DNA from: Nitrosopumilus sp. | GTDB lineage: Archaea > Thermoproteota > Nitrososphaeria > Nitrososphaerales > Nitrosopumilaceae | Reading direction: 5' to 3' | NCBI GenBank assembly: GCA_965249555.1 | Contig: OZ252243.1 | Location: forward strand, 640,001-704,000 | DNA length: 64,000 nucleotides | In this document: positions 1 through 49,700 of the stretch, one piece after another | Layout of the letters: each line of letters opens with the position of its first letter | Numbering within the stretch: the first letter of the stretch is position 1 | The notes under the pieces: model-generated | The model's database searches: none | What the model saw: only the letters and a program-made list of their open reading frames with translations | What the model was told of the DNA's origin: nothing | Position numbers and translations under genes: made by a program

Positions 1-18
1 ACATATCAACTCTACTAG

Positions 19-3000
19 GCTTCAAGAGAGTTGTAACTTTATCGTTACAGAAATTTGGTGGTCATGTGCCATATCAGAACGCCCTGATGTTATGCTTCAA
101 TGGGGCTGTAACTTTATCGTTACAGAAATTTGAGAATAAATCCAGTAATAAATGGATTACCAGTTCCAGCGCTTCAATGGGGCTGTAACTTTATCGTTAC
201 AGAAATTTTATGCGCTATGTGTTATGTTTGTCATACTCATGTAGCTTCAATGGGGCTGTAACTTTATCGTTACAGAAATTTCACAAATTGTAATACAATA
301 AGGGTACTATAACGGTTGCTTCAATGGGGCTGTAACTTTATCGTTACAGAAATTTTATGCGCTATGTGTTATGTTTGTCATACTCATGTAGCTTCAATGG
401 GGCTGTAACTTTATCGTTACAGAAATCACTCGGATGTTGTTTTCCCTGCACGTCTGATATACAGAGCTTCAATGGGGCTGTAACTTTACCGTTACAGAAA
501 TTGGCTCCAGCTTTGGTAATCTCAAGAATGATCTCGCCACGCTTCAATGGGGCTGTAACTTTATCGTTACAGAAATCACTCGGATGTTGTTTTCCCTGCA
601 CGTCTGATATACAGAGCTTCAATGGGGCTGTAACTTTACCGTTACAGAAATTGGCTCCAGCTTTGGTAATCTCAAGAATGATCTCGCCACGCTTCAATGG
701 GGCTGTAACTTTATCGTTACAGAAATGGCTTAATCAAAGATGTTATCTCAATGTCCGTATATTATCAACTTCAATGGGGCTGTAACTTTATCGTTACAGA
801 AATATAAAGAGGAAGCTGAGGGTTTCACAATCGATTTTCTAGCTTCAATGGGGCTGTAACTTTATCGTTACAGAAATTTTGTGAGGTTTGAAGTTTGAAG
901 TGGACAGTTTCCCAAGCTTCAATGGGGCTGTAACTTTATCGTTACAGAAATTCTGTTATCTTTGATTTTTAGTTTGATTTTATCTTCTTCAGCTTCAATG
1001 GGGCTGTAACTTTATCGTTACAGAAATCTAAAAATGTTTTGACTGCTGTCGGCGTGTAAGCCGGGCTTCAATGGGGCTGTAACTTTATCGTTACAGAAAT
1101 TTCCATCAGCTCCAGTTTCATCTTTACCAAATGCTTTGCTTCAATGGGGCTGTAACTTTATCGTTACAGAAATTTCTCCAGCCGGATATTGATAACCGTG
1201 AGCCTTCATGCTTCAATGGGGCTGTAACTTTATCGTTACAGAAATTTCGAAAAGCCAATTAGTAAACTTGGTACGACTCACCTGCTTCAATGGGGCTGTA
1301 ACTTTATCGTTACAGAAATTGTAAGTTACAGGATAACGCAATAAATCTATGCTCAGCTTCAATGGGGCTGTAACTTTATCGTTACAGAAATACTTTATCA
1401 CGATTACGGTTTAGATAGTCAAGGACAAGCTTCAATGGGGCTGTAACTTTATCGTTACAGAAATAAATGAATCAGCGAATAGTTCGACATCAAATTTCTT
1501 GCTTCAATGGGGCTGTAACTTTATCGTTACAGAAATCTGATGATAACATCTTTGCTGAATTTCATGTTCATGCTGCTTCAATGGGGCTGTAACTTTATCG
1601 TTACAGAAATCATGAGTGATTTGTTGTCCTCGAGTTGGTCCTCCATGTGCTTCAATGGGGCTGTAACTTTATCGTTACAGAAATGATACAACTTGAAAAT
1701 ATTGCAAAAGCAGAAGCACGCTTCAATGGGGCTGTAACTTTATCGTTACAGAAATTGGAAAATCAAGCTTCAAAATTAATGGCTACAACATCGCTTCAAT
1801 GGGGCTGTAACTTTATCGTTACAGAAATTTCCCTATGGACCTTCCTTTGCAGGTCCTTGTATTTCTCAGCTTCAATGGGGCTGTAACTTTATCGTTACAG
1901 AAATGCGGCAGCCAATCCCGACGGCTTGGCTTCCATCATAGACGCTTCAATGGGGCTGTAACTTTATCGTTACAGAAATGTAGTAATTGCATTCATCTGC
2001 ATTTGACTTGCACCACCGCTTCAATGGGGCTGTAACTTTATCGTTACAGAAATTTCGGCTTTGAAAATTGCTAATGCTTTAGATTTTTTGCTTCAATGGG
2101 GCTGTAACTTTATCGTTACAGAAATCTTGATGTCTCAAACAGCAAGAGTTCAAACTAGATTAGCTTCAATGGGGCTGTAACTTTATCGTTACAGAAATAT
2201 AGAACGGTTATCAGGTCAAAGAGCGTTAAAAGTAGCTTCAATGGGGCTGTAACTTTATCGTTACAGAAATTTGGATAGCGATTGGATAGCTATGACAAAG
2301 CAACTGGAAGCTTCAATGGGGCTGTAACTTTATCGTTACAGAAATCTGCATCAGTAAGAAATAGTAGATTGTCTACAGCCGTTGCTTCAATGGGGCTGTA
2401 ACTTTATCGTTACAGAAATGATGGATCAGGCTATACCAGGGGTATTGGGTCAGGGATGCTTCAATGGGGCTGTAACTTTATCGTTACAGAAATTTAGTGT
2501 TACTGAAAATTCTAGGTTAGGATGGTCCAAAGCTTCAATGGGGCTGTAACTTTATCGTTACAGAAATTTTGAAAAAGAAACTTTGAAAGAAGACAAAGAG
2601 AGAGCGCTTCAATGGGGCTGTAACTTTATCGTTACAGAAATCTTAGGTTGTAGAACTCAAAGAACAGCTGACATTATCGCTTCAATGGGGCTGTAACTTT
2701 ATCGTTACAGAAATGTCAGAATTAGTTTGAGTAAAAACACTACCTTTTCTCGCTTCAATGGGGCTGTAACTTTATCGTTACAGAAATTTAGCATACAAGA
2801 GATAGCCTCCGATACCAACCGCTCCTGGCTTCAATGGGGCTGTAACTTTATCGTTACAGAAATTTCTCAAAATGAAAAAAATTGTTAACAATGTCCAAGC
2901 TTCAATGGGGCTGTAACTTTATCGTTACAGAAATTTTGAGCCTTTCAATTACACTAGTTAAAATTTTAGATGCTTCAATGGGGCTGTAACTTTATCGTTA

Positions 3001-3538
3001 CAGAAATCACCAAGTCGTGCAATACCTCCACCAGGTCCTCCTGGCTTCAATGGGGCTGTAACTTTATCGTTACAGAAATTTGATTGTTTCGACAAGATTC
3101 CAACTGACACCTAGATCCTGGAGGCTTCAATGGGGCTGTAACTTTATCGTTACAGAAATTAGGATATCAGCGCCACGACTTAGGCCCGCTGCTAAATTTG
3201 TGCTTCAATGGGGCTGTAACTTTATCGTTACAGAAATATGGTATACAAGCAACATATCCGTACGAAGTGTGTATTGTCTACGCTTCAATGGGGCTGTAAC
3301 TTTATCGTTACAGAAATATCGAATTTAGAAAACTTGTCGCAATTAGAACATTTATGCTTCAATGGGGCTGTAACTTTATCGTTACAGAAATTTTTATAGA
3401 GCTATAAAGCCTAATATAAACCCTAAATGCTTCAATGGGGCTGTAACTTTATCGTTACAGAAATTTCTGTTTGTTCTTTTTTAGCCTTGTCAAGACTACT
3501 TTGCTTCAATGGGGCTGTAACTTTATCGTTACAGAAAT
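19..3538 (-). CRISPR. CRISPR array, 48 repeats / 47 spacers (about 35-44 bp), type I-G (I-U)-like repeat ATTTCTGTAACGATAAAGTTACAGCCCCATTGAAGC
   Basis: 36-bp repeat with a 7-bp hairpin CTGTAAC/GTTACAG and 3' end ATTGAAGC on the minus strand. The degenerate terminal repeat at 19-54 (4 mismatches) marks the trailer end, so the leader is on the cas2 side. Single-base variant repeats at 466, 616 and 768. Confidence 0.99.
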
Positions 3539-3691
3539 GGGGTCATTTTCTCTAAAACCGTTATCATGTTTTTGTTTCTAGTTGTTTTTCAATTGTTATC
3601 TGACGATTCAAGCAAATCATAGACATTGCTGTGGTATGATATTTTTTTCATATATATTATATCTGCGAGAGTATTATCATACTTACCTTGA
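3539..3691 (-). promoter_or_regulatory. CRISPR leader
   Basis: AT-rich non-coding stretch between cas2 and the first intact repeat, opposite the degenerate end; TATA-like run near 3650-3660. Confidence 0.7.
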
Positions 3692-3801
3692 CTTGTAACC
3701 CATCGCATTTTCTTTGCCCTATATCACTTGCGCAAAGCTCTTGATAGGGCTTCTTGTCAGGCATCTTGTAACCCATCGCATTTTCTTTGCCCTATATCAC
3801 T
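3692..3801. repeat. 37-bp direct repeat (3692-3728, 3765-3801) flanking a 36-bp unique insert
   Basis: CTTGTAACCCATCGCATTTTCTTTGCCCTATATCACT present twice, exact; the second copy overlaps the cas2 stop codon. Confidence 0.95.
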
Positions 3802-4079
3802 ACGGATCTCTCCCTTTCCGTATCCATTTGTGCCCCTATTACTGATATTCTTTCTTTACTTTTATTTAAGGAGCCAAGATTAATTATCAAAATTTTATCT
3901 TCAACCATATTCATTATATCCTCTAACTCTTCTTTCATAATTATTATTTCCTTGTAGTTAAGATCACACATAAACACAGAATATTGTACAGGTTCCCCAT
4001 ACCCCTTCATCTTTTTATGTATCTGTATCAATCGTTGCGGATCATGTATATCGTAACATACAAAGTATCTATTGCGCAA
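3792..4079 (-). CDS. cas2: CRISPR-associated endonuclease Cas2
   Basis: YFVCYDI..D..R and VQYSVF motifs; likely TTG start at 4079 just after the cas1 stop (ORF track start 4139 overlaps cas1). Confidence 0.96.
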   Translation of the reverse strand: MRNRYFVCYDIHDPQRLIQIHKKMKGYGEPVQYSVFMCDLNYKEIIIMKEELEDIMNMVEDKILIINLGSLNKSKERISVIGAQMDTERERSVVI

Positions 4080-4083
4080 ACCT

Positions 4084-5769
4084 TCATCTTGTCCTAAATG
4101 CAGGATATGTTGGAATCTCTCCAAGAATATGTCTGGCAAGTAATCTTGTTTGAGTTTCCATTATGCGTTTATAGCTGGCAGCATAACCCAAAAGTGGATG
4201 AATAACAACAGAATCCATACGTCTCTCATATGCAGTTATCACTGTAGAACGCCCTCTATTGGTAAGGTTTGTTCCAAAGTCGGTCTTTATCAAATCTGAT
4301 TCATTGATTTCACCGTTATTGATAAGCGTAATACATGTAGAATCTGCTACAATTGGTCTGAATTCCTCGATCATATCAAGTGCAAGTGCGGGTTTCCCAT
4401 ATTTTGGCATATGAAGAAATCCCAGATAGGGATCAAGACCTACTCTACTAACTGTAATCATTGCATTCCTTGTCAACATTGCATATAGAAATGACATAAT
4501 TGCATTAACTGGATCCTTTGGAGGTCTTCTGTTTCTTCCATTAAAATCAAAAGCCGTTGATTCAGATTTTATCATGCCATTAAATTCTGAAAAATATATG
4601 CGTGCAGCCATTCCCTCTATTCCAAGAAGAGTATCATATTGTTTTACAGTACATGCACGTTGTGCAAGTATGTTCATCTTGTGTATCTTATCTATAGGGG
4701 GAGATTTGTGGTTTCTACGTAGCATTGTCATGCAATTTTTTATTTTTCCAAACACCATCTGACGAGCTATCCCAATGGATGCATTTTTAACATCATATTT
4801 TTTATGCTGTTTAATTCGCAGTTCTATATTTTTATGTGAAAGTCCTGTAGTAATACCCGTAAACCATCCTCCATATGTCATGTAACAGATAGGAATATTT
4901 CGCTTGCTTAACTCCCTTATTGCTTGTGTTGTGATCTGGATATTTCCAAATAGTGTAATTTCTGAAATGTCTATCAATCTAATCTTCTTTATTATTGTAT
5001 CTTTTAATTTTACATGAATGCAATCATTTGATTTTGTAATATGTGCTCCCTGTTCCTGTATGTATACTGGTATGGTGTCATTTCTTATTGGATACATTCT
5101 GCGTATCTGGTCCTTGTTTATTTGATGAGTCTCATCTGATAACAAATTGACTTCATCAGGTAGACATATTCCCACAAGGGAACATCTTGGACATTTCGGA
5201 CTGTCAACCAACGGAGCAGGTATTGTATATGACTTTGCCATTTCTTTCATCTCTTTGATCATCTGTAATGTTTTTTTTACTGTTTGATCATCTAGATTAA
5301 TTTCTATTCTTTGCTTTGATGCAATATAATAAACAAAACCCTTTGTACATGTGTATCCATTTGCACGTAGTAAAAGTCCTTGAGCACATACTTGTATGAT
5401 GTGATCATCATATGTTCTGTTAGGAGTATTGGGAGTGCTGCCACGTTTGTATTCTATTGGTGTTGCAACGTTTCCATCTAATTCAAGTAGATCTGTTTTA
5501 GATATCAATCCAAGCTCTGTATCAGACAAAGTAACTGATCTGGCATGAATCTTTTCTACTGTGATATTATCTTTATCGGTCTTTTGTTCAAGCATTTTTC
5601 CTCCTGACGGTTTGTCTACATTTCTATGCTGATATTTGCCGTCTATCACATCTTTGTTGGATTCAAATTCCCCTTGAACCCATTCCATATATGCAAGTCG
5701 TTTACAATATACGAATTGTGTTAGCATTCTTACTGGTATAAGATTTGAATTAACACTTGATGTACTCAT
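4084..5769 (-). CDS. cas1: Cas4-Cas1 fusion protein (typical of type I-G/I-U)
   Basis: N-terminal Cas4 (YCKR, KTD..IEYK, CPRCSLVGIC Fe-S cysteines); C-terminal Cas1 (GIEG, RRPPKDPVNA, GFLH, LALDMIEEFR). Confidence 0.97.
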   Translation of the reverse strand: MSTSSVNSNLIPVRMLTQFVYCKRLAYMEWVQGEFESNKDVIDGKYQHRNVDKPSGGKMLEQKTDKDNITVEKIHARSVTLSDTELGLISKTDLLELDGNVATPIEYKRGSTPNTPNRTYDDHIIQVCAQGLLLRANGYTCTKGFVYYIASKQRIEINLDDQTVKKTLQMIKEMKEMAKSYTIPAPLVDSPKCPRCSLVGICLPDEVNLLSDETHQINKDQIRRMYPIRNDTIPVYIQEQGAHITKSNDCIHVKLKDTIIKKIRLIDISEITLFGNIQITTQAIRELSKRNIPICYMTYGGWFTGITTGLSHKNIELRIKQHKKYDVKNASIGIARQMVFGKIKNCMTMLRRNHKSPPIDKIHKMNILAQRACTVKQYDTLLGIEGMAARIYFSEFNGMIKSESTAFDFNGRNRRPPKDPVNAIMSFLYAMLTRNAMITVSRVGLDPYLGFLHMPKYGKPALALDMIEEFRPIVADSTCITLINNGEINESDLIKTDFGTNLTNRGRSTVITAYERRMDSVVIHPLLGYAASYKRIMETQTRLLARHILGEIPTYPAFRTR

Positions 5770-6112
5770 ATGTTTTGAAATTATTTTTCATATAAATAAA
5801 TCAATATATTGATGAGATAATTACTAAATGAGATAGATACAGTATCAATTATTGCTGTTTGAATTTCAGGATTATGTAACAATTCATCTCTCTCTAATTC
5901 TTGATTGAATTGCACTTGAAGAATATGAGTAATACTGAATTACTTTTTTGATTTCTTTAGACTTTTCTCGTATCTCTCAAATACTTTATCATCTCTTTTG
6001 CTCCATGGTTACTCTTCTTTGAGTTTGGTTTCTTCCATAGTTATATTATAACTATTTTGTTATTCAATTGCTTAAGCTTTGGTGATTTTGAAAATATAGG
6101 TCTCGATACCCG

Positions 6113-6637
6113 TTATACAAACTTTCTAGCCTTCATTCTCTTGATTTTTTCTTGCAACAAAATACATCCTTGGATGAGAGTTTCAGGTCTAGGCGGACAG
6201 CCAGGAACATAGACATCGACTGGAATCACTCCGTCAATTCCCGGAAGTACATTGTATGAATCAAAATACAACCCCCCAGTAATTGCACAAGCTCCCATAG
6301 CAATTACATACTTTGGTTCTGGCATTTGATCATAAACTAGTCTGAGACGTGGTGCCATTTTTCTTGTAATAGTTCCTTGAACAACAATTAGATCACATTG
6401 TCTAAGTGATCCAAATGCCTCAATGATACCAAATCTTTCAACATCATATCTAGGACTTGATGCTGCACCAAATTCAACACTGCAGCAAGCCGTTTCAATG
6501 TGGACAGGCCAGAGTGACCAAATTCTACCCCAATTGATGGCATAGCCCAATGGTTTGCCGATTGCCCGCTCTAAAATGTCCCCTAGCTTTCCTACAAAGA
6601 CATTTGCATTTTCTGGCGTTACTAAATCATTAAGCAA
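6113..6637 (-). CDS. nuoB: NADH-quinone oxidoreductase subunit B
   Basis: TACCSVE, GACAITGG and VPGCPPRPE Fe-S motifs. Confidence 0.97.
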   Translation of the reverse strand: MLNDLVTPENANVFVGKLGDILERAIGKPLGYAINWGRIWSLWPVHIETACCSVEFGAASSPRYDVERFGIIEAFGSLRQCDLIVVQGTITRKMAPRLRLVYDQMPEPKYVIAMGACAITGGLYFDSYNVLPGIDGVIPVDVYVPGCPPRPETLIQGCILLQEKIKRMKARKFV

Positions 6638-6676: not shown

Positions 6677-7051
6677 CTACCATATTCTTCGCCTCCCAGA
6701 CTGATACAATGCAAATGCCATTGCGCCAAACATTATAGCTAAAAATCCCATCATTGGCAAAGTTGCACTCTTTGGAAGTTCCAAAAGGGCACTTCCCCAG
6801 GCATACAGGAAGATTGCCATGACATCAAAGACTACAAACATCAGAATGTAGGGATAATACTGCATCATAAAGTGAGTCCGGCCTTCGCCTGACGGGACTT
6901 GACCGCATTCCATTGGTAAAAATTTCACAGGATTGTTTATTTTTCGAGGAGAAATCATCCTAGAAATAACTAAAGCCGGAGCCATAGCTGCTACGGCAAA
7001 TCCAAACATCAATACAACAATACTGTAATTGCCCGCTAATTCTCCGACCAA
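6677..7051 (-). CDS. nuoA: NADH-quinone oxidoreductase subunit A
   Basis: Three hydrophobic helices, PMECG loop, FVVFDV; directly upstream of nuoB. Confidence 0.95.
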   Translation of the reverse strand: MVGELAGNYSIVVLMFGFAVAAMAPALVISRMISPRKINNPVKFLPMECGQVPSGEGRTHFMMQYYPYILMFVVFDVMAIFLYAWGSALLELPKSATLPMMGFLAIMFGAMAFALYQSGRRRIW

Positions 7052-7097: not shown

Positions 7098-8030
7098 GGT
7101 TCTCCCATACGAAATCGTCTCCAACCCTACTGAGGACACTTACTAGCGTGCTTTGCTGAATCAGGACATCTCAGATATGCTTTGCATCTTATACTTTCGT
7201 TGTGTCAGTTCATGATTTTGTGTACGATACACTTTCAGAATTTGTTAGCATGTACCCGGATTATTGCAAGCATCCGGTCTTGCAGCTGCCACCTTTGCCT
7301 TTTGTTTTCCTCTTCTCTTTGCAATTCTGAAATAGAATGATTCCATTCTTTCATCAAATCGTACTATAGTATTTGCAGCCTCTACCATTGCGTTACGTAA
7401 CCATGCAGAACCCCTCTTTGTTATTCCGCCTCCTCGGTGCACATCTGCGCTGTCCCTGTGCGATGGTGCAAGTCCTGCATATGAGACTAGTTTTTCTGCT
7501 GTTGCAAATCTGCTGATGTCAACTATCTCTGAAATTATTGTCAATGCCGTGACATAGTTTATTCCAGGAATGGTCATTAGCAGTCTTGTTTTCTCATCCT
7601 CATTGCTAATTGTTGCAATCTTTATCTCAATTGTGTTGATCTGTTTTTGCATCATATCTATGCTGTCAAGATATGCATCCATTGCCATTCTGTCAACCTC
7701 ACTCAGATTAATTTCATGCAACCATCGTACTCCTTTTTGCGAGAATGTCTTTGTGGGTGTAATCATATTTTGCAAGTATTGCATAAATCATGTTTTTGTG
7801 TTTTGATACATTTCGCACGCGATTCAGTCTGGTTCTTACCAGACTGTATAGGTCTCTATAGTATTTTTCTGGTACGAATGAGCTGTACACCATGTCTGCT
7901 CTTAGCAAGTCTGCCAATACGTCTGAATCAAGTTTGTCGTTTTTTATCTTTGCCTGTGCAATTATCTTGGTCTTTGCAGGATGTGCGAGAACTGTATCAA
8001 TTCCATGGTCTTCTAGTGTGTCATGGAGTC
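7098..8030 (-). pseudogene. IS110-family transposase remnant (5'-truncated, frameshifted) with its 3' end
   Basis: KNDKLDSDVLADLLR, TIPGI, SYAGLAP and KRGSAWLR motifs split over several frames; 3' end sequence recurs at 24511, 32551 and 34399. Confidence 0.9.
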
Positions 8031-8364
8031 TAATCCAATAGTTGGCTTTGTTGTAATGATAGGACTATCCATTATGTTTAGTTTAGGACAGAATACTTAC
8101 GAATCAGAAGAATATGATCTGGTGGTTATTGGATTTGAGGATTTGCTAACAAAATGCAACAGCATACACAGTTTTGAATCCTATAATTCCTACATTGATC
8201 ATCATAATTCTTTCATTGATGAATATGGGGAATTTAATAAATCTGAAGGCGATACTGAAATTGTTTCAACAGATTACCAAATTGCAATTTTGATAGAAGA
8301 ACTGATTCAATGTGAGAATAAGGAAGAATCTAGGTTGATAAACTATGGTGAGCTATCAGGATAG
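8023..8364 (+). CDS. hypothetical membrane-anchored protein (possibly 5'-truncated)
   Basis: 113-aa ORF with N-terminal hydrophobic segment abutting the IS110 breakpoint. Confidence 0.5.
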   Translation: MESNPIVGFVVMIGLSIMFSLGQNTYESEEYDLVVIGFEDLLTKCNSIHSFESYNSYIDHHNSFIDEYGEFNKSEGDTEIVSTDYQIAILIEELIQCENKEESRLINYGELSG

Positions 8365-8379
8365 GATGTAATTTGTATC

Positions 8380-8783
8380 TAGGATTTTTCTTTATTCATT
8401 GATCAGAAAGTCAAACTAAACAAGTGTTTCAATCAGAACCAGAACCTATTGATGAATGTCCTTTTTGCCATAAACCTAGCGATATTATATACAAAATATA
8501 CAACAATAAGACTAAGCATTATTCTGCTTTTTCAATAGGATAAGGGGATTATTCGGCTACATTTACTTGTAGAAATTGCACTACTGAAGGAGAATTATCA
8601 AAAGATTTTGAACATAATTTAATCTACAATTTCAAATTAGGTTTAAAATATAATAAAATCTGTAAATCATACAAACATAATCCTGTAAAGGCACGAGGTC
8701 AATTAGAAAAATTAATACAAAAAAATCAACAGTATACAAATGTTGAGGATTTTGTAGAAACTCTAAGAGATTGGGATAGATAA
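8380..8783 (+). pseudogene. zinc-ribbon protein remnant
   Basis: One frame reads ECPFCHKP...FTCRNC but contains internal stop codons. Confidence 0.4.
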
Positions 8784-8910
8784 TTACCATCTCCATAAAT
8801 CCTTCAAAAAGCCCCGACAGTTAACAGGAAGAAGATTTACAGTTATGCCTCGATAAGTTAACAGAACCGTTTCAAATAGTTTTTATATTAGTATACCGAA
8901 CATATGGTGA

Positions 8911-9923
8911 ATGCCTACCTTATTAACAACCAGAGATCGAATTAGTTTTGAGGATAAAATACAGACAAAAGCAGTCAATACGCAGAAAACATCCCAGTCA
9001 TCAGTAAGAAACTTTGAGAGATTTTGCAAGGAAAAGTATGACAAATCAATGGAGGAGATAATATCAGAATATCACAAAGTTGAGATGGATTTAATCTATG
9101 AATCACTGCAAGAATGGATAAACTGGAACAATACAAAGGTTCATTCAAACAGCATTCCTACACTGTTTTCATATCTCAAAACATACCTAAGATATCACAA
9201 GATAAGAATTACAAAAGAGGATGTGGTAAAACAGCTGAGTTTACCTCACAAGGTCAAAGAGGAGAAATATCCATTGACAAAAGAGGAGATCAGAAGCCGA
9301 TGATTTTTTGTTTGATATTGAACATGATTACCTGGGAGAAATATCCATTGACAAAAGAGGAGATCAGAAGGATACTGCAAGTATGCAATAAGAATAACAC
9401 GATCAAGATTCTGGCACAGTTATCAAGTGATATGAGAAAAGGGGAATTGCTCCAGCTGAAAAAAAGAGATCTTGGACAAAAAAGAATCATGGTAAATATT
9501 CCTGCAAGTATTACAAAGACAAAAAGATCAAGGGTGACTTTTTTTAGCAGAGAGATAATACCTTTACTGATGCCGATTCTTAGAAGGCTCTGGCTGATGA
9601 TGACAGAGTGTTTTTTCGTGGAAAGCTAAATCCTGCAAACATAAGCAATCACTACCAGCTGATTCTGACAGAGTATCTAAAGAGGACAGGGCTTGATCAA
9701 AAATATGAATCCGGACGTCACAAGATAACAACACACAGCTTTAGGGCATTTTTTATCACAAAGGTGTCTCTTCATGATCCAAACCTTGCAAAGTACTTTG
9801 CAGGACAGGAACAAACAAGAGACCTGCTGATGTATGACATATTGACAGCAGATGAAAAGTGAGAAAACTATATCAAATTTGAGCCTGATTTGTTGATATG
9901 GGATTCAAATAAAAGCGTAAGGT
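8911..9923 (+). pseudogene. tyrosine recombinase/integrase, disrupted
   Basis: Three frames carry the N-terminal binding domain, SSDMRKGELLQL (catalytic R), KTK, HSFR and LMY; broken by a 74-bp insertion at about 9297, a frameshift near 9590 and a stop at 9860. Confidence 0.9.
9261..9370. repeat. 36-bp direct repeat (9261-9296, 9335-9370) flanking a 38-bp unique insert
   Basis: GGAGAAATATCCATTGACAAAAGAGGAGATCAGAAG present twice, exact; flanking bases differ on both sides. Confidence 0.97.
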
Positions 9924-9936
9924 AAGGCCAACTGTC

Positions 9937-10629
9937 ATGCCACATGTCTCAATTTATGTTGATGAATCAGGAGATATTGGATTTAAAAGATCATCAGAGT
10001 TCTTTACTGTAGGATATGTGTTTACTGTTAACAAGTTTCCTCAAAAAGAAAATAGGAGAATGAAAAAATTATTAAAGAATATCAATCTAGGTATCAAAAA
10101 ACACAATAAAAAAATTTCAGAATTCAAGTTTTCAGACAATACACATGAAATTAGAAAGAAGGTTTTACATGAAATACAAAAATTGGATGCAAACATTGGT
10201 GTCATATGTATAAGCAAGGATTCAGTAAAGGCAAAATTGAAAAAGGATCCCATCAGATTCTACAGCTATGTCATAATTGAGAATATTGCAACGGTGCTAG
10301 TAAATGATTATATGAAAACATATGATCCTTACAACAACATTCGTTTTACAATAGACAGAAGTTTATCAAAAAATCAGATTAAATCATTTAATGAATACTG
10401 TGAAGAAAAAATATCATACAAAACACATCAAAGGGATCAGGAAATGGAAATACGCACAACAATCAAGCATGAGGATTCAAAAAAAGTTCCGATGCTGCAA
10501 GTTGCAGACTATATAGCAGGTGCAACACAGAGAAAAATTGTACATAGAGATTCAACATACTATAATATAATTTCAGAGAGAATAAAACATCGTGAAAAAT
10601 GGGATTGGAACAACAAAATTAGTTGGTGA
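9937..10629 (+). CDS. DUF3800 domain protein
   Basis: N-terminal IYVDESG, EFKF and C-terminal S......LQVADYIAG motifs. Confidence 0.85.
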   Translation: MPHVSIYVDESGDIGFKRSSEFFTVGYVFTVNKFPQKENRRMKKLLKNINLGIKKHNKKISEFKFSDNTHEIRKKVLHEIQKLDANIGVICISKDSVKAKLKKDPIRFYSYVIIENIATVLVNDYMKTYDPYNNIRFTIDRSLSKNQIKSFNEYCEEKISYKTHQRDQEMEIRTTIKHEDSKKVPMLQVADYIAGATQRKIVHRDSTYYNIISERIKHREKWDWNNKISW

Positions 10630-43700: not shown

Positions 43701-46700
43701 CAGTTGTCGTACCAGCTGGTGTCACCCCATTGAATAGTTGTATAGTTGCCCCGGCCTCAGTTGAAGTACCATCAATTGTGATTGGTGTAGAGCCAACAGT
43801 TGCAGGTGGCGTGGTAATTGCAGGAACTGGTGGCGGTGTGGTATCAGTTACTTTGTATGTTCTGGTTTTATCACCAGCCGGGTTTGTACCATCAGTTGAG
43901 GAATAAGTGATAGTGTAATCGCCTACTGTGCCAACATCAACAGTTCCAGATATGGTGATTGGAGAGCCATCATCAGTTGATACTCCATCAAGAAGTACCG
44001 GTGCAGGTGAGTCTAGTTCAAGGGTGATCTCTTCTGGAGTTACTGTGATTACCGGCGGCGTAACATCAGGTCCTACTGTTACAGTTTCAGTGATTGTTCT
44101 GCTTTGTTCATTGTTGTCAGTTACGGTGTAAGTTACAGCATATTCTCCAGAAGCGTTGACATTGACTGTTTTGCCGCCAACCATACCAGGTGCAGTTCCT
44201 GAGATATCAAATGCATTGGCAATCGTACCTTGGGTGTATGTTCCGCCAAATGGCACTGTAGTGGAATAGTCATCTGTGTTACCATCAACATCAAAGGTTG
44301 GCGGTGTGGTATCAGATACAGTAATTACAATTGATTGTTGGTCCGGTGTGTTGCCTGCCGCATCATCTGGCGCATCATACAATACGGTGTAAACTCCTAT
44401 ACTGCTGGTGTCAGGCGTATCACCAGAGGGTGTTGCCGTTTCAGAGTAATCTGGGTCATTATCAGTTACGGTGCCGCCTTGTTCTGTGTAGGTGTCAGTT
44501 GCAGTCAACTCTATTGTTGTATCAGATCCTGTTGGTGTGATTACTGGCGGCGTAACATCAGGTCCTACTGTTACAGTTTCAGTGATTGTTCTGCTTTGTT
44601 CATTGTTGTCAGTTACGGTGTAAGTTACAGCATATTCTCCAGAAGCGTTGACATTGACTGTTTTGCCGCCAACTGTACTGGATTTAATTCCTGAGATATC
44701 AGATGCATTGGCAATCGTACCTTGGGTGTATGTTCCGCCAAATGGCACTGTAGTGGAATAGTCATCTGTGTTACCATCAACATCAAAGGTTGGCGGTGTG
44801 GTATCAGATACGGTAATTACAATTGATTGTTGGTCCGGTGTGTTGCCTGCCGCATCATCTGGCGCATCATACAATACGGTGTAAACTCCTATACTACTGG
44901 TGTCAGGTGTATCACCAGAGGGTGTTGCCGTTTCAGAGTAATCTGGGTCATTATCAGTTACGGTGCCGCCTTGTTCTGTGTAGGTGTCAGTTGCAGTCAA
45001 CTCTATTGTTGTATCAGATCCTGTTGGTGTGATTACTGGTGGTATAGTGTCAAGTGTGATGAGTACTGCTGGTGATGGATCAGATGTGTTGACTCCATCA
45101 GTTGCTCTTGCAGTAAATGAGTTGCCACCCTCATCTAGTTCAACTCCTGCAAATGAGAAATTCCCTGAATCATCGGCAGTTGTCGTACCAGCTGGTGTCA
45201 CCCCATTGAATAGTTGTATAGTTGCCCCGGCCTCAGTTGAAGTACCATCAATTGTGATTGGTGTAGAGCCAACAGTTGCAGGTGGCGTGGTAATTGCAGG
45301 AACTGGTGGCGGTGTGGTATCAGTTACTTTGTATGTTCTGGTTTTATCACCAGCCGGGTTTGTACCATCAGTTGAGGAATAAGTGATAGTGTAATCGCCT
45401 ACTGTGCCAACATCAACAGTTCCAGATATGGTGATTGGGGAGCCATCATCAGTTGATACTCCATCAAGAAGTACCGGTGCAGGTGAGTCTAGTTCAAGGG
45501 TGATCTCTTCTGGAGTTACTGTGATTACCGGCGGCGTAACATCAGGTCCTACTGTTACAGTTTCAGTGATTGTTCTGCTTTGTTCATTGTTGTCAGTTAC
45601 GGTGTAAGTTACAGCATATTCTCCAGAAGCGTTGACATTGACTGTTTTGCCGCCAACCATACCAGGTGCAGTTCCTGAGATATCAAATGCATTGGCAATC
45701 GTACCTTGGGCGTATGTTCCGCCAAATGGCACTGTAGTGGAATAGTCATCCGTGTTACCATCAACGTCAAAGGTTGGCGGTGTGGTATCAGATACGGTAA
45801 TTACAATTGATTGTTGGTCCGGTGTGTTGCCTGCCGCATCATCTGGCGCATCATACAATACGGTGTAGACTCCTATACTACTGGTGTCAGGCGTATCACC
45901 AGAGGGTGTTGCCGTTTCAGAGTAATCTGGGTCATTATCAGTTACGGTGCCGCCTTGTTCTGTGTAGGTGTCAGTTGCAGTCAACTCTATTGTTGTATCA
46001 GATCCTGTTGGTGTGATTACCGGCGGCGTAACATCAGGTCCTACTGTTACAGTTTCAGTGATTGTTCTGCTTTGTTCATTGTTGTCAGTTACGGTGTAAG
46101 TTACAGCATATTCTCCAGAAGCGTTGACATTGACTGTTTTGCCGCCAACTGTACTGGATTTAATTCCTGAGATATCAGATTGATTGTTAATTACACCTGG
46201 GGCGTATGTTCCGCCAAATGGCACTGTAGTGGAATAGTCATCTGTGTTACCATCAACATCAAAGGTTGGCGGTGTGGTATCAGATACGGTAATTACAATT
46301 GATTGTTGGTCCGGTGTGTTGCCTGCCGCATCATCTGGCGCATCATACAATACGGTGTAAACTCCTATACTACTGGTGTCAGGCGTATCACCAGAGGGTG
46401 TTGCCGTTTCAGAGTAATCTGGGTCATTATCAGTTACGGTGCCGCCTTGTTCTGTGTAGGTGTCAGTTGCAGTCAACTCTATTGTTGTATCAGATCCTGT
46501 TGGTGTGATTACTGGTGGTATAGTGTCAAGTGTGATGAGTACTGCTGGTGATGGATCAGATGTGTTGACTCCATCAGTTGCTCTTGCAGTAAATGAGTTG
46601 CCACCCTCATCTAGTTCAACTCCTGCAAATGAGAAATTCCCCGAATCATCGGCAGTTGTCGTACCAGCTGGTGTCACCCCATTGAATAGTTGTATAGTTG

Positions 46701-49700
46701 CCCCGGCCTCAGTTGAAGTACCATCAATTGTGATTGGTGTAGAGCCAACAGTTGCAGGTGGCGTGGTAATTGCAGGAACTGGTGGCGGTGTGGTATCAGT
46801 TACTTTGTATGTTCTGGTTTTATCACCAGCCGGGTTTGTACCATCAGTTGAGGAATAAGTGATAGTGTAATCGCCTACTGTGCCAACATCAACAGTTCCA
46901 GATATGGTGATTGGAGAGCCATCATCAGTTGATACTCCATCAAGAAGTACCGGTGCAGGTGAGTCTAGTTCAAGGGTGATCTCTTCTGGAGTTACTGTGA
47001 TTACCGGCGGCGTAACATCAGGTCCTACTGTTACAGTTTCAGTGATTGTTCTGCTTTGTTCATTGTTGTCAGTTACGGTGTAAGTTACAGCATATTCTCC
47101 AGAAGCGTTGACATTGACTGTTTTGCCGCCAACCATACCAGGTGCAGTTCCTGAGATATCAAATGCATTGGCAATCGTACCTTGGGCGTATGTTCCGCCA
47201 AATGGCACTGTAGTGGAATAGTCATCTGTGTTACCATCAACATCAAAGGTTGGCGGTGTGGTATCAGATACGGTAATTACAATTGATTGTTGGTCCGGTG
47301 TGTTGCCTGCCGCATCATCTGGCGCATCATACAATACGGTGTAGACTCCTATACTGCTGGTGTCAGGCGTATCACCAGAGGGTGTTGCCGTTTCAGAGTA
47401 ATCTGGGTCATTATCAGTTACGGTGCCGCCTTGTTCTGTGTAGGTGTCAGTTGCAGTCAACTCTATTGTTGTATCAGATCCTGTTGGTGTGATTACTGGC
47501 GGCGTAACATCAGGTCCTACTGTTACAGTTTCAGTGATTGTTCTGCTTTGTTCATTGTTGTCAGTTACGGTGTAAGTTACAGCATATTCTCCAGAAGCGT
47601 TGACATTGACTGTTTTGCCGCCAACTGTACTGGATTTAATTCCTGAGATATCAGATGCATTGGCAATCGTACCTTGGGTGTATGTTCCGCCAAATGGCAC
47701 TGTAGTGGAATAGTCATCTGTGTTACCATCAACATCAAAGGTTGGCGGTGTGGTATCAGATACGGTAATTACAATTGATTGTTGGTCCGGTGTGTTGCCT
47801 GCCGCATCATCTGGCGCATCATACAATACGGTGTAAACTCCTATACTGCTGGTGTCAGGCGTATCACCAGAGGGTGTTGCCGTTTCAGAGTAATCTGGGT
47901 CATTATCAGTTACGGTGCCGCCTTGTTCTGTGTAGGTGTCAGTTGCAGTCAACTCTATTGTTGTATCAGATCCTGTTGGTGTGATTACTGGTGGTATAGT
48001 GTCAAGTGTGATGAGTACTGCTGGTGATGGATCAGATGTGTTGACTCCATCAGTTGCTCTTGCAGTAAATGAGTTGCCACCCTCATCTAGTTCAACTCCT
48101 GCAAATGAGAAATTCCCCGAATCATCGGCAGTTGTCGTACCAGCTGGTGTCACCCCATTGAATAGTTGTATAGTTGCCCCGGCCTCAGTTGAAGTACCAT
48201 CAATTGTGATTGGTGTAGAGCCAACAGTTGCAGGTGGCGTGGTAATTGCAGGAACTGGTGGCGGTGTGGTATCAGTTACTTTGTATGTTCTGGTTTTATC
48301 ACCAGCCGGGTTTGTACCATCAGTTGAGGAATAAGTGATAGTGTAATCGCCTACTGTGCCAACATCAACAGTTCCAGATATGGTGATTGGAGAGCCATCA
48401 TCAGTTGATACTCCATCAAGAAGTACCGGTGCAGGTGAGTCTAGTTCAAGGGTGATCTCTTCTGGAGTTACTGTGATTACCGGCGGCGTAACATCAGGTC
48501 CTACTGTTACAGTTTCAGTGATTGTTCTGCTTTGTTCATTGTTGTCAGTTACGGTGTAAGTTACAGCATATTCTCCAGAAGCGTTGACATTGACTGTTTT
48601 GCCGCCAACCATACCAGGTGCAGTTCCTGAGATATCAAATGCATTGGCAATCGTACCTTGGGTGTATGTTCCGCCAAATGGCACTGTAGTGGAATAGTCA
48701 TCTGTGTTACCATCAACATCAAAGGTTGGCGGTGTGGTATCAGATACGGTAATTACAATTGATTGTTGGTCCGGTGTGTTGCCTGCCGCATCATCTGGCG
48801 CATCATACAATACGGTGTAAACTCCTATACTGCTGGTGTCAGGCGTATCACCAGAGGGTGTTGCCGTTTCAGAGTAATCTGGGTCATTATCAGTTACGGT
48901 GCCGCCTTGTTCTGTGTAGGTGTCAGTTGCAGTCAACTCTATTGTTGTATCAGATCCTGTTGGTGTGATTACTGGCGGCGTAACATCAGGTCCTACTGTT
49001 ACAGTTTCAGTGATTGTTCTGCTTTGTTCATTGTTGTCAGTTACGGTGTAAGTTACAGCATATTCTCCAGAAGCGTTGACATTGACTGTTTTGCCGCCAA
49101 CTGTACTGGATTTAATTCCTGAGATATCAGATGCATTGGCAATCGTACCTTGGGTGTATGTTCCGCCAAATGGCACTGTAGTGGAATAGTCATCTGTGTT
49201 ACCATCAACATCAAAGGTTGGCGGTGTGGTATCAGATACGGTAATTACAATTGATTGTTGGTCCGGTGTGTTGCCTGCCGCATCATCTGGCGCATCATAC
49301 AATACGGTGTAAACTCCTATACTACTGGTGTCAGGTGTATCACCAGAGGGTGTTGCCGTTTCAGAGTAATCTGGGTCATTATCAGTTACGGTGCCGCCTT
49401 GTTCTGTGTAGGTGTCAGTTGCAGTCAACTCTATTGTTGTATCAGATCCTGTTGGTGTGATTACTGGTGGTATAGTGTCAAGTGTGATGAGTACTGCTGG
49501 TGATGGATCAGATGTGTTGACTCCATCAGTTGCTCTTGCAGTAAATGAGTTGCCACCCTCATCTAGTTCAACTCCTGCAAATGAGAAATTCCCTGAATCA
49601 TCGGCAGTTGTCGTACCAGCTGGTGTCACCCCATTGAATAGTTGTATAGTTGCCCCGGCCTCAGTTGAAGTACCATCAATTGTGATTGGTGTAGAGCCAA

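What the first reader, a model, noticed from the sequence alone, without database searches (positions are those of the whole stretch)
502..690. Duplicated spacer matches the neighbouring core gene nuoA with only synonymous mismatches and a TTC PAM
Seen: spacers 502-540 and 652-690 encode APALVISRMISP, identical to NuoA. In crRNA orientation they match 6946-6984 at 30/39, all 9 mismatches are third-codon synonymous, and the 5' flank is TTC. Mismatches at seed positions 2, 5 and 8 should protect the local copy. Inference: the spacer came from a diverged nuoA allele - a related thaumarchaeote's chromosome (inter-species DNA transfer or antagonism), a virus or element carrying nuoA, or a second genomic copy. 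Alternatively the local nuoAB is a replacement allele that escaped self-targeting.
Basis: partly seen in the sequence, partly recalled or inferred. Interest (0 to 1): 0.85.

Follow-up and report, generated by a model that had tools for sequence, protein, structure and literature searches.

The report
CRISPR spacer from a foreign nuoA allele
An old, duplicated CRISPR spacer in a marine ammonia-oxidising archaeon was copied from a relative's version of the respiratory gene nuoA, which hints at DNA exchange between related species but is too mismatched to harm the cell's own gene.

Summary
Spacers 502-540 and 652-690 are identical. They match the cell's own nuoA at 6946-6984 in 30 of 39 bases. 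All 9 mismatches are synonymous third-codon changes (12 of 12 residues kept), and the 5' flank is TTC.

The array (48 repeats, 47 spacers, read on the minus strand) belongs to a complete type I-G CRISPR-Cas system. TTC fits that type's published TTN PAM. The roughly 14.5 kb CRISPR-Cas locus splits the nuo operon between nuoB and nuoC.

The genome has only one nuoA and no better match to the spacer. No exact copy turned up in the viral, genome or metagenome collections. The best of 81 distinct nuoA alleles reaches 34 of 39.

The most likely source is an unsampled nuoA allele of a related ammonia oxidiser, probably captured from incoming DNA at a locus that recombines often. The first 180 nt of the local nuoA, which hold the match, are phylogenetically discordant with the rest of nuoA-nuoB. 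However, the allele type expected before that replacement matches the spacer no better (30 of 39), so escape from self-targeting is not supported.

This is a new member of a known kind and of moderate interest.

The parts
19..3538 (-). CRISPR array: 48 repeats of 36 nt and 47 spacers (44 unique), transcribed leftwards from the leader at its right end
   Evidence: The terminal repeat at 19-54 carries 4 mismatches, which marks the trailer end. In minus-strand sense the repeat ends ATTGAAGC, the 8-nt 5' handle.
502..540 (-). nuoA-like spacer, copy 1 (spacer 7, near the old trailer end)
652..690 (-). nuoA-like spacer, copy 2 (spacer 9)
391..690 (.). Exact tandem duplication of a 150-nt block holding two repeat-spacer units (spacers 6/7 = 8/9)
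   Evidence: family D4, 100% identity. The variant repeat (T>C) precedes both copies of the spacer.
3539..3791 (-). AT-rich leader between the array and cas2
   Evidence: Window 3503-3709 is 79.7% identical to the stretch next to cas2 in congener G361.
3792..4139 (-). cas2
   Evidence: Pfam PF09827 and TIGR01573.
4084..5769 (-). cas4/cas1 fusion of type I-G
   Evidence: NF049935 cas4g_cas1g, 731 bits against a cut-off of 560. Pfam Cas1 plus Cas4 domains.
6113..6637 (-). nuoB. Its last ~17 nt are repeated just upstream of nuoC, on the far side of the CRISPR-Cas insertion (outside the window, genome ~631539)
   Evidence: Pfam PF01058. Junction sequences.
6677..7051 (-). nuoA, the only copy in the genome
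6946..6984 (+). Protospacer-like site in nuoA, written in crRNA sense: 30 of 39 identical to the spacer
6943..6945 (+). TTC at the PAM position, 5' of the site on the non-target strand
   Evidence: Published I-G PAM is TTN / GAA (passages).
6872..7051 (-). The first 180 nt of nuoA: a segment whose ancestry differs from the rest of nuoA-nuoB
7245..8033 (-). Broken IS110-family transposase gene directly upstream of nuoA
   Evidence: Pfam PF02371 on 7245-7784. It is absent at this place in G380.

Best explanation
The spacer is a true CRISPR memory taken from the nuoA gene of another ammonia-oxidising archaeon of the same family, probably the same genus. That allele is not in the collections searched.

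Inferred mechanism: DNA from a relative entered the cell. The type I-G Cas4/Cas1-Cas2 machinery cut a 39-nt piece next to a TTC PAM and inserted it at the leader. The unit later drifted to the trailer end and was duplicated by recombination between repeats.

nuoA-nuoB sits between two variable regions: the CRISPR-Cas island in the nuoB|nuoC gap, and an IS- and integrase-bearing region upstream of nuoA. Foreign nuoA DNA is therefore a likely substrate there, as the flank of exchanged islands.

The crRNA does not attack the cell's own gene. Nine mismatches, three of them at seed positions 2, 5 and 8 and none at every-sixth positions, should prevent R-loop formation.

Shown here: the match and its codon pattern, the system type, the single gene copy, the absence of a better match, and the mosaic ancestry of nuoA. 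Inferred: the route of entry, the link to local recombination, and the harmlessness.
For: Match and pattern.

System type: all six type I-G cas genes score above NCBIfam cut-offs. Cas3 has its HD domain at the C-terminus. The I-G PAM is given as TTN (PMC9638904, passage) and as 5'-GAA-3' on the other strand (PMC10504553, passage).

One gene, no better match: one nuoA in the genome and no better match elsewhere in it.

The spacer looks like a family allele. Against 40 distinct genus alleles it scores 27-34 of 39 (mean 30.9), where the alleles score 26-38 among themselves (mean 32.3). Every variable base of the spacer except the TCG codon is seen in the genus. TCG itself occurs in metagenome locus L094.

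The organism is an ammonia oxidiser: it has archaeal AmoA.

The locus is recombination-prone:
- nuoA-B-C are contiguous in 38 of 41 congener loci. Two congeners (G380, G202) carry inserts between nuoB and nuoC, and one locus is cut by a contig end.
- G361 carries a type I-G locus with the identical repeat at the same site.
- The nuoC-side end of the insert and the duplicated nuoB tail are clearly shared with G202 and G361; G380 carries a more diverged look-alike, judged by eye.
- In nuoA 1-180 the own genome groups with G202 and G361 (support 96/90). The rest of nuoA-nuoB rejects that group (p-AU 7.8e-5) and lies nearest G380 and G405, as does the amoA locus.

Other support: contigs of other nuoAB alleles, 80-95% alike, occur in the same sequencing runs as this organism. 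In Pyrococcus furiosus, CRISPR arrays, transposons and sites of recombination with incoming DNA are hot spots for spacer uptake (PMC5737086, abstract and passages).
Against: The source allele was not found.
- Exact spacer: 0 hits in IMG/VR, in one genome per species and in JGI metagenome contigs.
- Up to 3 mismatches: 0 of 400 relatives in the order.
- BLAST of all 150 congeners and of a 400-genome family sample: nothing above 88-89% identity.
- 80 metagenome nuoA loci: best 33 of 39.

No other spacer shows a chromosomal-gene match. This holds for the other 43 unique spacers here, the 60 spacers of the second array and 699 unique spacers from relatives' arrays. Chromosomal DNA uptake is therefore rare, not pervasive.

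The link to local recombination is circumstantial. Neither the imported allele type (present own allele, 30 of 39) nor the G380/G405 type (30 of 39) is the spacer's source.

The tree groups were named after the trees were seen. The reverse AU test on segment A is only borderline (p 0.064).

Seed rules for type I-G were not found in the papers read. They are carried over from recalled type I-E/I-F work.
Confidence: 0.6

Rival explanations
1. Self origin in an earlier host. The array and its adaptation module were imported by recombination from a congener whose CRISPR-Cas locus also lay beside nuoAB. There the spacer had been taken from that cell's own nuoA, because DNA next to an array is an uptake hot spot. 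In the new host the gene is diverged, so the spacer is harmless.
For: nuoA lies 0.9 kb from the cas genes and 3.1 kb from the leader. About 10 kb of a 2.23 Mb genome is that close, so chance proximity is roughly 0.5% (inference from coordinates). Array-adjacent hot spots are reported for P. furiosus (PMC5737086). G361 has the identical repeat at the same site, and its cas4/1-cas2 is 88% identical in DNA. Its effector Cas proteins, by contrast, share only 32-46% of residues with ours, and nuoC-N is 78.6% identical in DNA. This shows that modules of this locus have been exchanged.
Against: A perfect self-match with a TTC PAM should kill the donor. G361's own allele matches only 32 of 39. No spacer is shared with G361 or any other relative. 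None of the 699 unique spacers from relatives' arrays, including those beside nuo in G361 and G386, matches the nuo loci.
Confidence: 0.15
2. Escape from autoimmunity. An ancestor of this strain took the spacer from its own nuoA. Survivors were cells in which recombination replaced the targeted part of nuoA with a foreign allele.
For: The replaced tract (nuoA 1-180 plus at least 42 nt upstream, which are 97.6% identical to G202) covers the protospacer at gene positions 68-106. The cas genes are all intact.
Against: Alleles of the background clade (G380, G405) match the spacer at 30 of 39, and related metagenome alleles L093 and L123 at 32 of 39. About 2-3 differences would be expected from the roughly 5% divergence seen in the rest of nuoA-nuoB. 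The tract would cover the site by chance about 19% of the time (180 of 939 nt).
Confidence: 0.12
3. The spacer came from a virus or mobile element that carries a nuoA-like auxiliary gene.
For: Viruses of these archaea are poorly sampled. The other spacers also have no database target. Mobile elements of this group are known to carry metabolic genes such as amoC (PMC6563490, summary passage).
Against: In IMG/VR, 9 candidate stretches were found and none encodes a NuoA relative. The exact spacer has 0 hits there. GenBank phages give no match to the array.
Confidence: 0.06
4. Regulatory crRNA. The crRNA is antisense to nuoA mRNA (34 of 39 pairs if G:U is allowed) and tunes expression of respiratory complex I.
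For: Strand and pairing were computed. The duplication doubles the dose of this crRNA.
Against: No Cas10 (type III) gene scores above cut-off in the genome. Type I-G is a DNA-targeting system (PMC9638904). The seed mismatches argue against DNA binding. Spacers 3 and 5 are also duplicated, so duplication is not special to this spacer.
Confidence: 0.02
5. Chance resemblance.
For: 30 of 39 is only slightly above the best chance hits of the other spacers (29 of 41 and 29 of 40).
Against: All 9 mismatches are synonymous and in the phase of a real gene (p about 3e-6). The peptide match is 12 of 12, against a background best of 9 of 13. The flank is a correct PAM.
Confidence: 0.01

Closest known systems
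CRISPR spacers against chromosomal genes of related species in haloarchaea (Turgeman-Grott et al. 2019, Nat Microbiol 4:177). I saw only its title, in a reference list; the paper is not held and its content is recalled.
   Same: A type I archaeal system holds a spacer derived from a core chromosomal gene of a relative. This implies DNA transfer between species and a possible barrier to it.
   Different: Here there is a single such spacer among 104 unique spacers in the genome, not a pervasive pattern. The donor is unidentified. The system is type I-G in a marine ammonia oxidiser, for which no mating or transformation route is known. The cell's own copy of the gene lies beside the array.
Self-targeting spacers and CRISPR autoimmunity, including uptake hot spots next to arrays (P. 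furiosus, PMC5737086; abstract and passages read)
   Same: The spacer resembles a gene of the host chromosome close to the array and close to a transposase gene, with a proper PAM.
   Different: The match is 30 of 39 with seed mismatches, so it is not a functional self-target. The nine synonymous differences cannot be escape point mutations.
Type I-G (formerly I-U) CRISPR-Cas of Geobacter and Thioalkalivibrio (PMC9638904 and PMC10504553; passages read)
   Same: Same gene set (Cas7g, Csb2, Cas3g, Cas8g1, Cas4/Cas1, Cas2), a 36-nt repeat with a hairpin, an 8-nt handle, and a TTN PAM.
   Different: The host is an archaeon and the locus is inserted inside the nuo operon. Activity was not tested.
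Spacers of Porphyromonas that match genomes of other Porphyromonas species (PMC5570325; only the search listing and the start of the abstract were seen)
   Same: Spacers that point at relatives' chromosomes in an organism with few known phages or plasmids.
   Different: A bacterium, other CRISPR types, and many such spacers.

Membership tests
Type I-G CRISPR-Cas system | Signature genes csb2 (Cas5/Cas6 fusion), cas7g (Csb1) and cas8g (Csx17) | tested here: met
   TIGR02165 at 188.9 bits (cut-off 45), TIGR02570 at 87.2 (cut-off 38), TIGR04113 at 525.2 (cut-off 150)..
Type I-G CRISPR-Cas system | Cas3 with the helicase first and the HD nuclease at the C-terminus | tested here: met
   TIGR02621 cas3_GSU0051 at 704.9 bits (cut-off 400). 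Helicase domains at residues 50-374 and HD at 592-771.
Type I-G CRISPR-Cas system | Cas4-Cas1 fusion plus Cas2 | tested here: met
   NF049935 at 731 bits (cut-off 560) and TIGR01573.
Type I-G CRISPR-Cas system | 36-nt hairpin repeat cut to leave an 8-nt 5' handle | tested here: inconclusive
   The repeat is 36 nt. The 7-bp stem arms change together among congeners' repeats. The stem is followed by 4 nt and then ATTGAAGC, which fits the cleavage geometry described in PMC9638904. Processing itself was not tested.
Type I-G CRISPR-Cas system | 5'-TTN PAM on the non-target strand | tested here: inconclusive
   TTC flanks the only identifiable (diverged) protospacer, in 36 of 42 genus loci and in 39 of 80 metagenome loci. 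No second protospacer was found to confirm the PAM of this array.
Functional self-targeting spacer (autoimmunity) | Full or near-full match to the host's own chromosome, with an intact seed and a PAM | tested here: not met
   30 of 39, with mismatches at positions 2, 5 and 8. No better site exists in the genome.
Spacer acquired from a related species' chromosome | A protospacer, identical or nearly so, present in a relative's chromosomal gene | tested here: inconclusive
   The gene family, reading frame and PAM fit. The best allele reaches 34 of 39 among 81 distinct alleles. No exact match in three collections.
Spacer acquired from a virus or mobile element | The protospacer lies on a viral or plasmid sequence | tested here: not met
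   within the limits of those collections.

The most novel reading that the evidence does not exclude
The spacer is a scar of island exchange. In this genus the nuoB|nuoC gap and the region upstream of nuoA are swap sites where cassettes (CRISPR-Cas, IS elements, toxin-antitoxin genes) are exchanged between species by recombination through the conserved nuoA-nuoB flanks. The resident type I-G adaptation machinery samples the free ends of such incoming DNA. CRISPR would then record, and could police, recombination with particular congeners at its own locus. That would be a direct genomic trace of gene flow between species in marine ammonia oxidisers, which have no known DNA-transfer route.
Probability: 0.3. 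Interest if true: 0.65.

Novelty: new member of a known kind. Interest (0 to 1): 0.45.

Why it matters
Marine ammonia-oxidising archaea are among the most abundant cells in the ocean, yet how they exchange DNA is essentially unknown, and few of them carry CRISPR. A spacer copied from a relative's core respiratory gene shows that chromosomal DNA of one such archaeon has been inside another. The mosaic nuoA, and the shared insertion site with changing cargo, show that such DNA also recombines.

The case is also a clean natural example of a spacer that resembles the host's own essential gene and is tolerated because only wobble positions differ. That is useful when setting thresholds for calling 'self-targeting' spacers.

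It is one spacer with an unidentified donor, so its weight is modest. Two literature searches (listings only) showed no report of such spacers in ammonia-oxidising archaea.

Tried and rejected
- Second nuoA copy: rejected. The complete genome has one hit.

- Other spacers matching chromosomal genes. Spacer 39 hit a zinc-finger gene in two congeners at 29 of 35. I rejected this as chance: the sequence is A-rich, the mismatches are not in codon phase, and the spacer has a stop codon in the gene's frame. Spacers 23 and 41 seemed to match the own genome near 1.61 Mb. That region turned out to be a second CRISPR array, so these are overlaps between spacers, not gene matches.

- Type III RNA targeting: no Cas10 scores above cut-off.

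- Sequencing runs. Only contigs were available. Of the nine spacer-specific bases, only 6959 C>T was listed, and that is the majority state in the genus, so the table is not diagnostic; 429 further differences were not shown. Absence of cover in runs X5, X6 and X1 says nothing.

- Genome-wide relatedness using window 44001-64000: no hits in five relatives. That stretch is one giant variable gene, so the test was uninformative. I repeated it with the amoA locus.

- Target-site-like repeats flanking the CRISPR-Cas insert. Three 12-mers are shared between the two flanks. Only the one at the nuoB stop and nuoC start is meaningful.

- PAM confirmation from other spacers: not possible, because no other protospacer was found. 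I did not scan further spacers in IMG/VR and did not use degenerate or shortened versions of the spacer (see below).

- Structure prediction, fold search, complex prediction and the three large protein searches were not used, because no claim here depends on them.
Full report
**Observation**

The window starts inside a CRISPR-Cas locus. Positions 19-3538 hold 48 copies of a 36-nt repeat and 47 spacers of 35-44 nt, 44 of them unique. Spacer 7 (502-540) and spacer 9 (652-690) are identical. They lie in an exact 150-nt tandem duplication (391-540 = 541-690), and each follows the same single-base variant of the repeat. One block of two repeat-spacer units was therefore duplicated; the spacer was not acquired twice. 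Spacers 3 and 5 are also identical.

A gap-free scan of every spacer against the whole 2,230,439-bp genome (one contig, 34.4% GC) places the best match of this spacer at window 6946-6984, with 30 of 39 identical. The next best is 25 of 39. The other spacers peak at 60-75% identity.

On bases alone the hit is only just above noise. What makes it real is the pattern. All nine mismatches fall on third-codon positions of the gene at 6677-7051 (minus strand), which is NuoA (Pfam PF00507). All nine are synonymous, giving 12 of 12 residues, APALVISRMISP. The best translated match of any other spacer is 9 of 13. Nine mismatches would land on the 13 third positions by chance with probability 3.4e-6.

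**Orientation and system type**

The repeat at 19-54 is degenerate (4 changes), which marks the trailer end. The AT-rich stretch 3539-3791 lies between the array and cas2, and it is conserved next to cas2 in a congener (79.7% over window 3503-3709). The array is therefore read on the minus strand. In that sense the repeat ends ATTGAAGC. The crRNA then has the sequence of the plus strand at 6946-6984, the 5' flank 6943-6945 is TTC, and the mismatches sit at crRNA positions 2, 5, 8, 14, 17, 20, 23, 26 and 32.

The cas genes are cas2 (3792-4139) and a cas4/cas1 fusion (4084-5769) in the window. Just upstream of the window lie cas7g, csb2, cas3g (HD domain at the C-terminus) and cas8g1/csx17. All score above NCBIfam cut-offs for type I-G.

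Papers on type I-G give a TTN PAM (PMC9638904, introduction passage) and use 5'-GAA-3' on the complementary strand (PMC10504553, passages). They also describe a 36-nt repeat cut 4 nt after the hairpin to leave an 8-nt handle, which is the geometry seen here. The stem arms of the repeat change in step among congeners' arrays. The genome encodes archaeal AmoA, so the host is an ammonia-oxidising archaeon.

**Where the spacer came from**

The genome has a single nuoA and no better match elsewhere. This rules out a second copy. The searches for a source gave:

- The exact 39-mer is absent from IMG/VR, from one genome per prokaryote species, and from JGI metagenome contigs.
- It is absent at up to 3 mismatches from 400 relatives in the order.
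- A BLAST of the whole array against all 150 other species of the genus finds the spacer only as diverged hits in their nuoA genes. Across 42 loci, own included, the match is 27-34 of 39. The best are G481, G256, G253 and G437 at 34, and TTC is the flank in 36 of 42.
- A sample of 400 genomes of the family gives nothing better.
- Eighty metagenome nuoA loci peak at 33 of 39.
- Over 81 distinct alleles the maximum is 34.

The spacer behaves like one more allele of this gene family. Its distance to genus alleles (mean 30.9 of 39) is close to their distance from one another (mean 32.3). Each of its variable bases occurs in some allele, including the rare TCG codon in metagenome locus L094. Its third-position GC content is higher than usual, 0.46 against a mean of 0.26.

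No viral contig encodes a NuoA relative, and GenBank phages show no match to the array. The source is thus most simply an unsampled cellular nuoA of a related ammonia oxidiser.

**Is uptake of chromosomal DNA general here? No**

None of the other 43 unique spacers matches a gene of this genome or of congeners. One apparent hit, spacer 39, is a chance A-rich match with a stop codon in frame.

The genome holds a second array (genome 1609811-1613821; 61 repeats of 30 nt). It lies beside a cas4-cas1 remnant broken by IS elements. None of its 60 spacers matches the genome. Among 699 unique spacers taken from relatives' arrays, none matches the nuo loci, with a maximum of 73% identity.

**Context: nuoA-nuoB lies between two variable regions**

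In 38 of 41 congener loci (some genomes appear twice) nuoA, B, C and D are contiguous, and where I read the junction (four loci) the nuoB stop overlaps the nuoC start. In this genome about 14.5 kb of CRISPR-Cas separates nuoB from nuoC-N.

Congener G361 has a type I-G locus with the identical repeat at the same site. G380 has IS elements there, and G202 has a ParE-type toxin gene. The last ~17 nt of nuoB are repeated just before nuoC. The ~100 nt of insert next to nuoC are clearly homologous in the own genome, G202 and G361, and a more diverged look-alike, judged by eye, is present in G380. This points to one old insertion whose cargo has since changed.

Between the own genome and G361, cas4/1-cas2 is 88% identical in DNA and nuoC-N 78.6%, while the effector Cas proteins share only 32-46% of residues. 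Modules of the locus have therefore been swapped. Upstream of nuoA lie a broken IS110 transposase gene, integrase fragments and a DUF3800 gene.

**nuoA itself is a mosaic**

Against G380, the nearest relative in nuoB (94.8%), nuoC (92%) and nuoC-N (89.7%), the differences crowd into the first 180 nt of nuoA: 32 there, against about 5% divergence in the remaining 760 nt.

In that first segment G380 is no closer than the average allele (82.2% against a mean of 82.3%). The nearest alleles there are a different set at about 88%, among them G202 and G361. Trees say the same. Segment 1-180 groups the own genome with G202 and G361 (support 96/90). The rest of nuoA-nuoB rejects that group (p-AU 7.8e-5) and places the own genome next to G380 and G405.

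Two caveats apply. I named the groups after seeing the trees, and forcing own+G380+G405 together on the short segment is only borderline (p 0.064).

The amoA locus agrees with the G405/G380 background: 94% and 88%, against 81-86% for G202 and G361. The 42 nt upstream of nuoA are 97.6% identical to G202. So the 5' part of nuoA, which contains the protospacer at gene positions 68-106, was imported by recombination.

**What this means for the rival readings**

The imported tract covers the target site, as the escape-from-autoimmunity idea predicts. But the allele type of the background clade, which stands in for the state before replacement, matches the spacer at only 30 of 39 (G380, G405) to 32 of 39 (metagenome relatives L093, L123). 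Two or three differences would be expected. The present allele is also 30 of 39, so the spacer was not taken from the imported DNA either. It records a third allele.

The closeness of the gene to the array (0.9 kb from the cas genes; roughly 0.5% by chance) is best explained by the locus being a place where foreign nuoA-flanked DNA repeatedly arrives and recombines. In P. furiosus, arrays, transposons and sites of recombination with incoming DNA are uptake hot spots (PMC5737086). This link is inference.

A self origin in a former host of the array remains possible but lacks support. G361's allele is 32 of 39, there are no shared spacers, and a perfect self-target should be lethal.

**Consequence for the cell**

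Nine mismatches, three of them in the PAM-proximal eight positions and none at every-sixth positions, should block R-loop formation on the cell's own gene. This rests on seed rules recalled from type I-E/I-F work; I found no type I-G seed data in the papers read.

The crRNA is antisense to nuoA mRNA (34 of 39 pairs counting G:U), but the genome has no Cas10 scoring above cut-off. A regulatory role is therefore unlikely. No known allele, with 5 or more mismatches always including position 5, would be a good target today.

**Comparison and verdict**

Spacers against relatives' chromosomal genes are known, above all in haloarchaea (Turgeman-Grott 2019, recalled; only its title was seen). This is a new member of that kind in a group where it appears unreported: two searches, listings only; supplements were closed.

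Contigs of other nuoAB alleles co-occur with this organism in public runs, so donors are at hand. The finding is real and neatly explained in outline. It rests on one spacer and an unidentified donor, so I rate it of moderate interest.

Noticed in passing
Genome 631539-646113 (window -8461 to 6113); L001:11539-20000 plus window 1-6113: The whole type I-G CRISPR-Cas locus (~14.5 kb) sits between nuoB and nuoC and splits the nuo operon. The last ~17 nt of nuoB are repeated just before nuoC. About 100 nt of TATA-rich insert end are clearly shared with G202 and G361, which suggests an old insertion that supplies a new promoter for nuoC-N; G380 shows a more diverged look-alike, judged by eye. The cargo differs between genomes: CRISPR-Cas in G361, IS elements in G380, a ParE toxin gene in G202.
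   Followed up: partly
Outside the window: genome 1609811-1613821 (L002:9811-13821) and L002:13967-16629: A second CRISPR array (61 repeats of 30 nt, 60 spacers) lies next to a cas4-cas1(-cas2?) module. That module is interrupted by an IS1595 transposase gene and flanked by IS66 transposase genes. No effector genes were looked for.
   Followed up: partly
Window 1685-1719 and 3008-3043, against genome 1611836 and 1610571: Spacers 23 and 41 of array 1 overlap two spacers of array 2 (23 of 24 and 24 of 29 bases, the latter with wobble-type differences). Both arrays therefore sampled the same region of related, unknown targets.
   Followed up: partly
Window 34714-64000 (-): A giant open frame of at least 9761 codons runs off the window's end. 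A 20-kb DNA query of this stretch found nothing in five congeners at E <= 1e-20.
   Followed up: no
Window 7245-10629: A degraded mobile region lies directly upstream of nuoA: a broken IS110 transposase gene, phage-integrase fragments (9114-9629) and a DUF3800 gene (9937-10629). G380 shares the integrase and orf130 fragments at 73-76% identity but lacks the IS.
   Followed up: partly
Genome 1884690-1884798 (-), outside the window: A mini-array of two perfect copies of the array-1 repeat with a single 37-nt spacer, far from any cas gene examined.
   Followed up: no
Window 55-3502 (spacer starts on the + strand): By my own count on the spacer list, 20 of 47 spacers begin with TT and 6 more with T on the plus strand. 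That is AA or A at the PAM-distal end in crRNA sense. This is either a fuzzy repeat boundary or a bias in end trimming. Unexplained.
   Followed up: no
L037-L049 (arrays of congeners G361, G497, G488, G409, G340, G500, G386, G502, G501, G495, G496, G465): The repeats differ among congeners by paired changes in the two 7-nt stem arms, which is natural covariation supporting the repeat hairpin. G386 has its array 3.6 kb upstream of nuoA. Of the 10 array-bearing congeners whose nuoA position I saw, two (G361 and G386) have the array beside nuo.
   Followed up: partly
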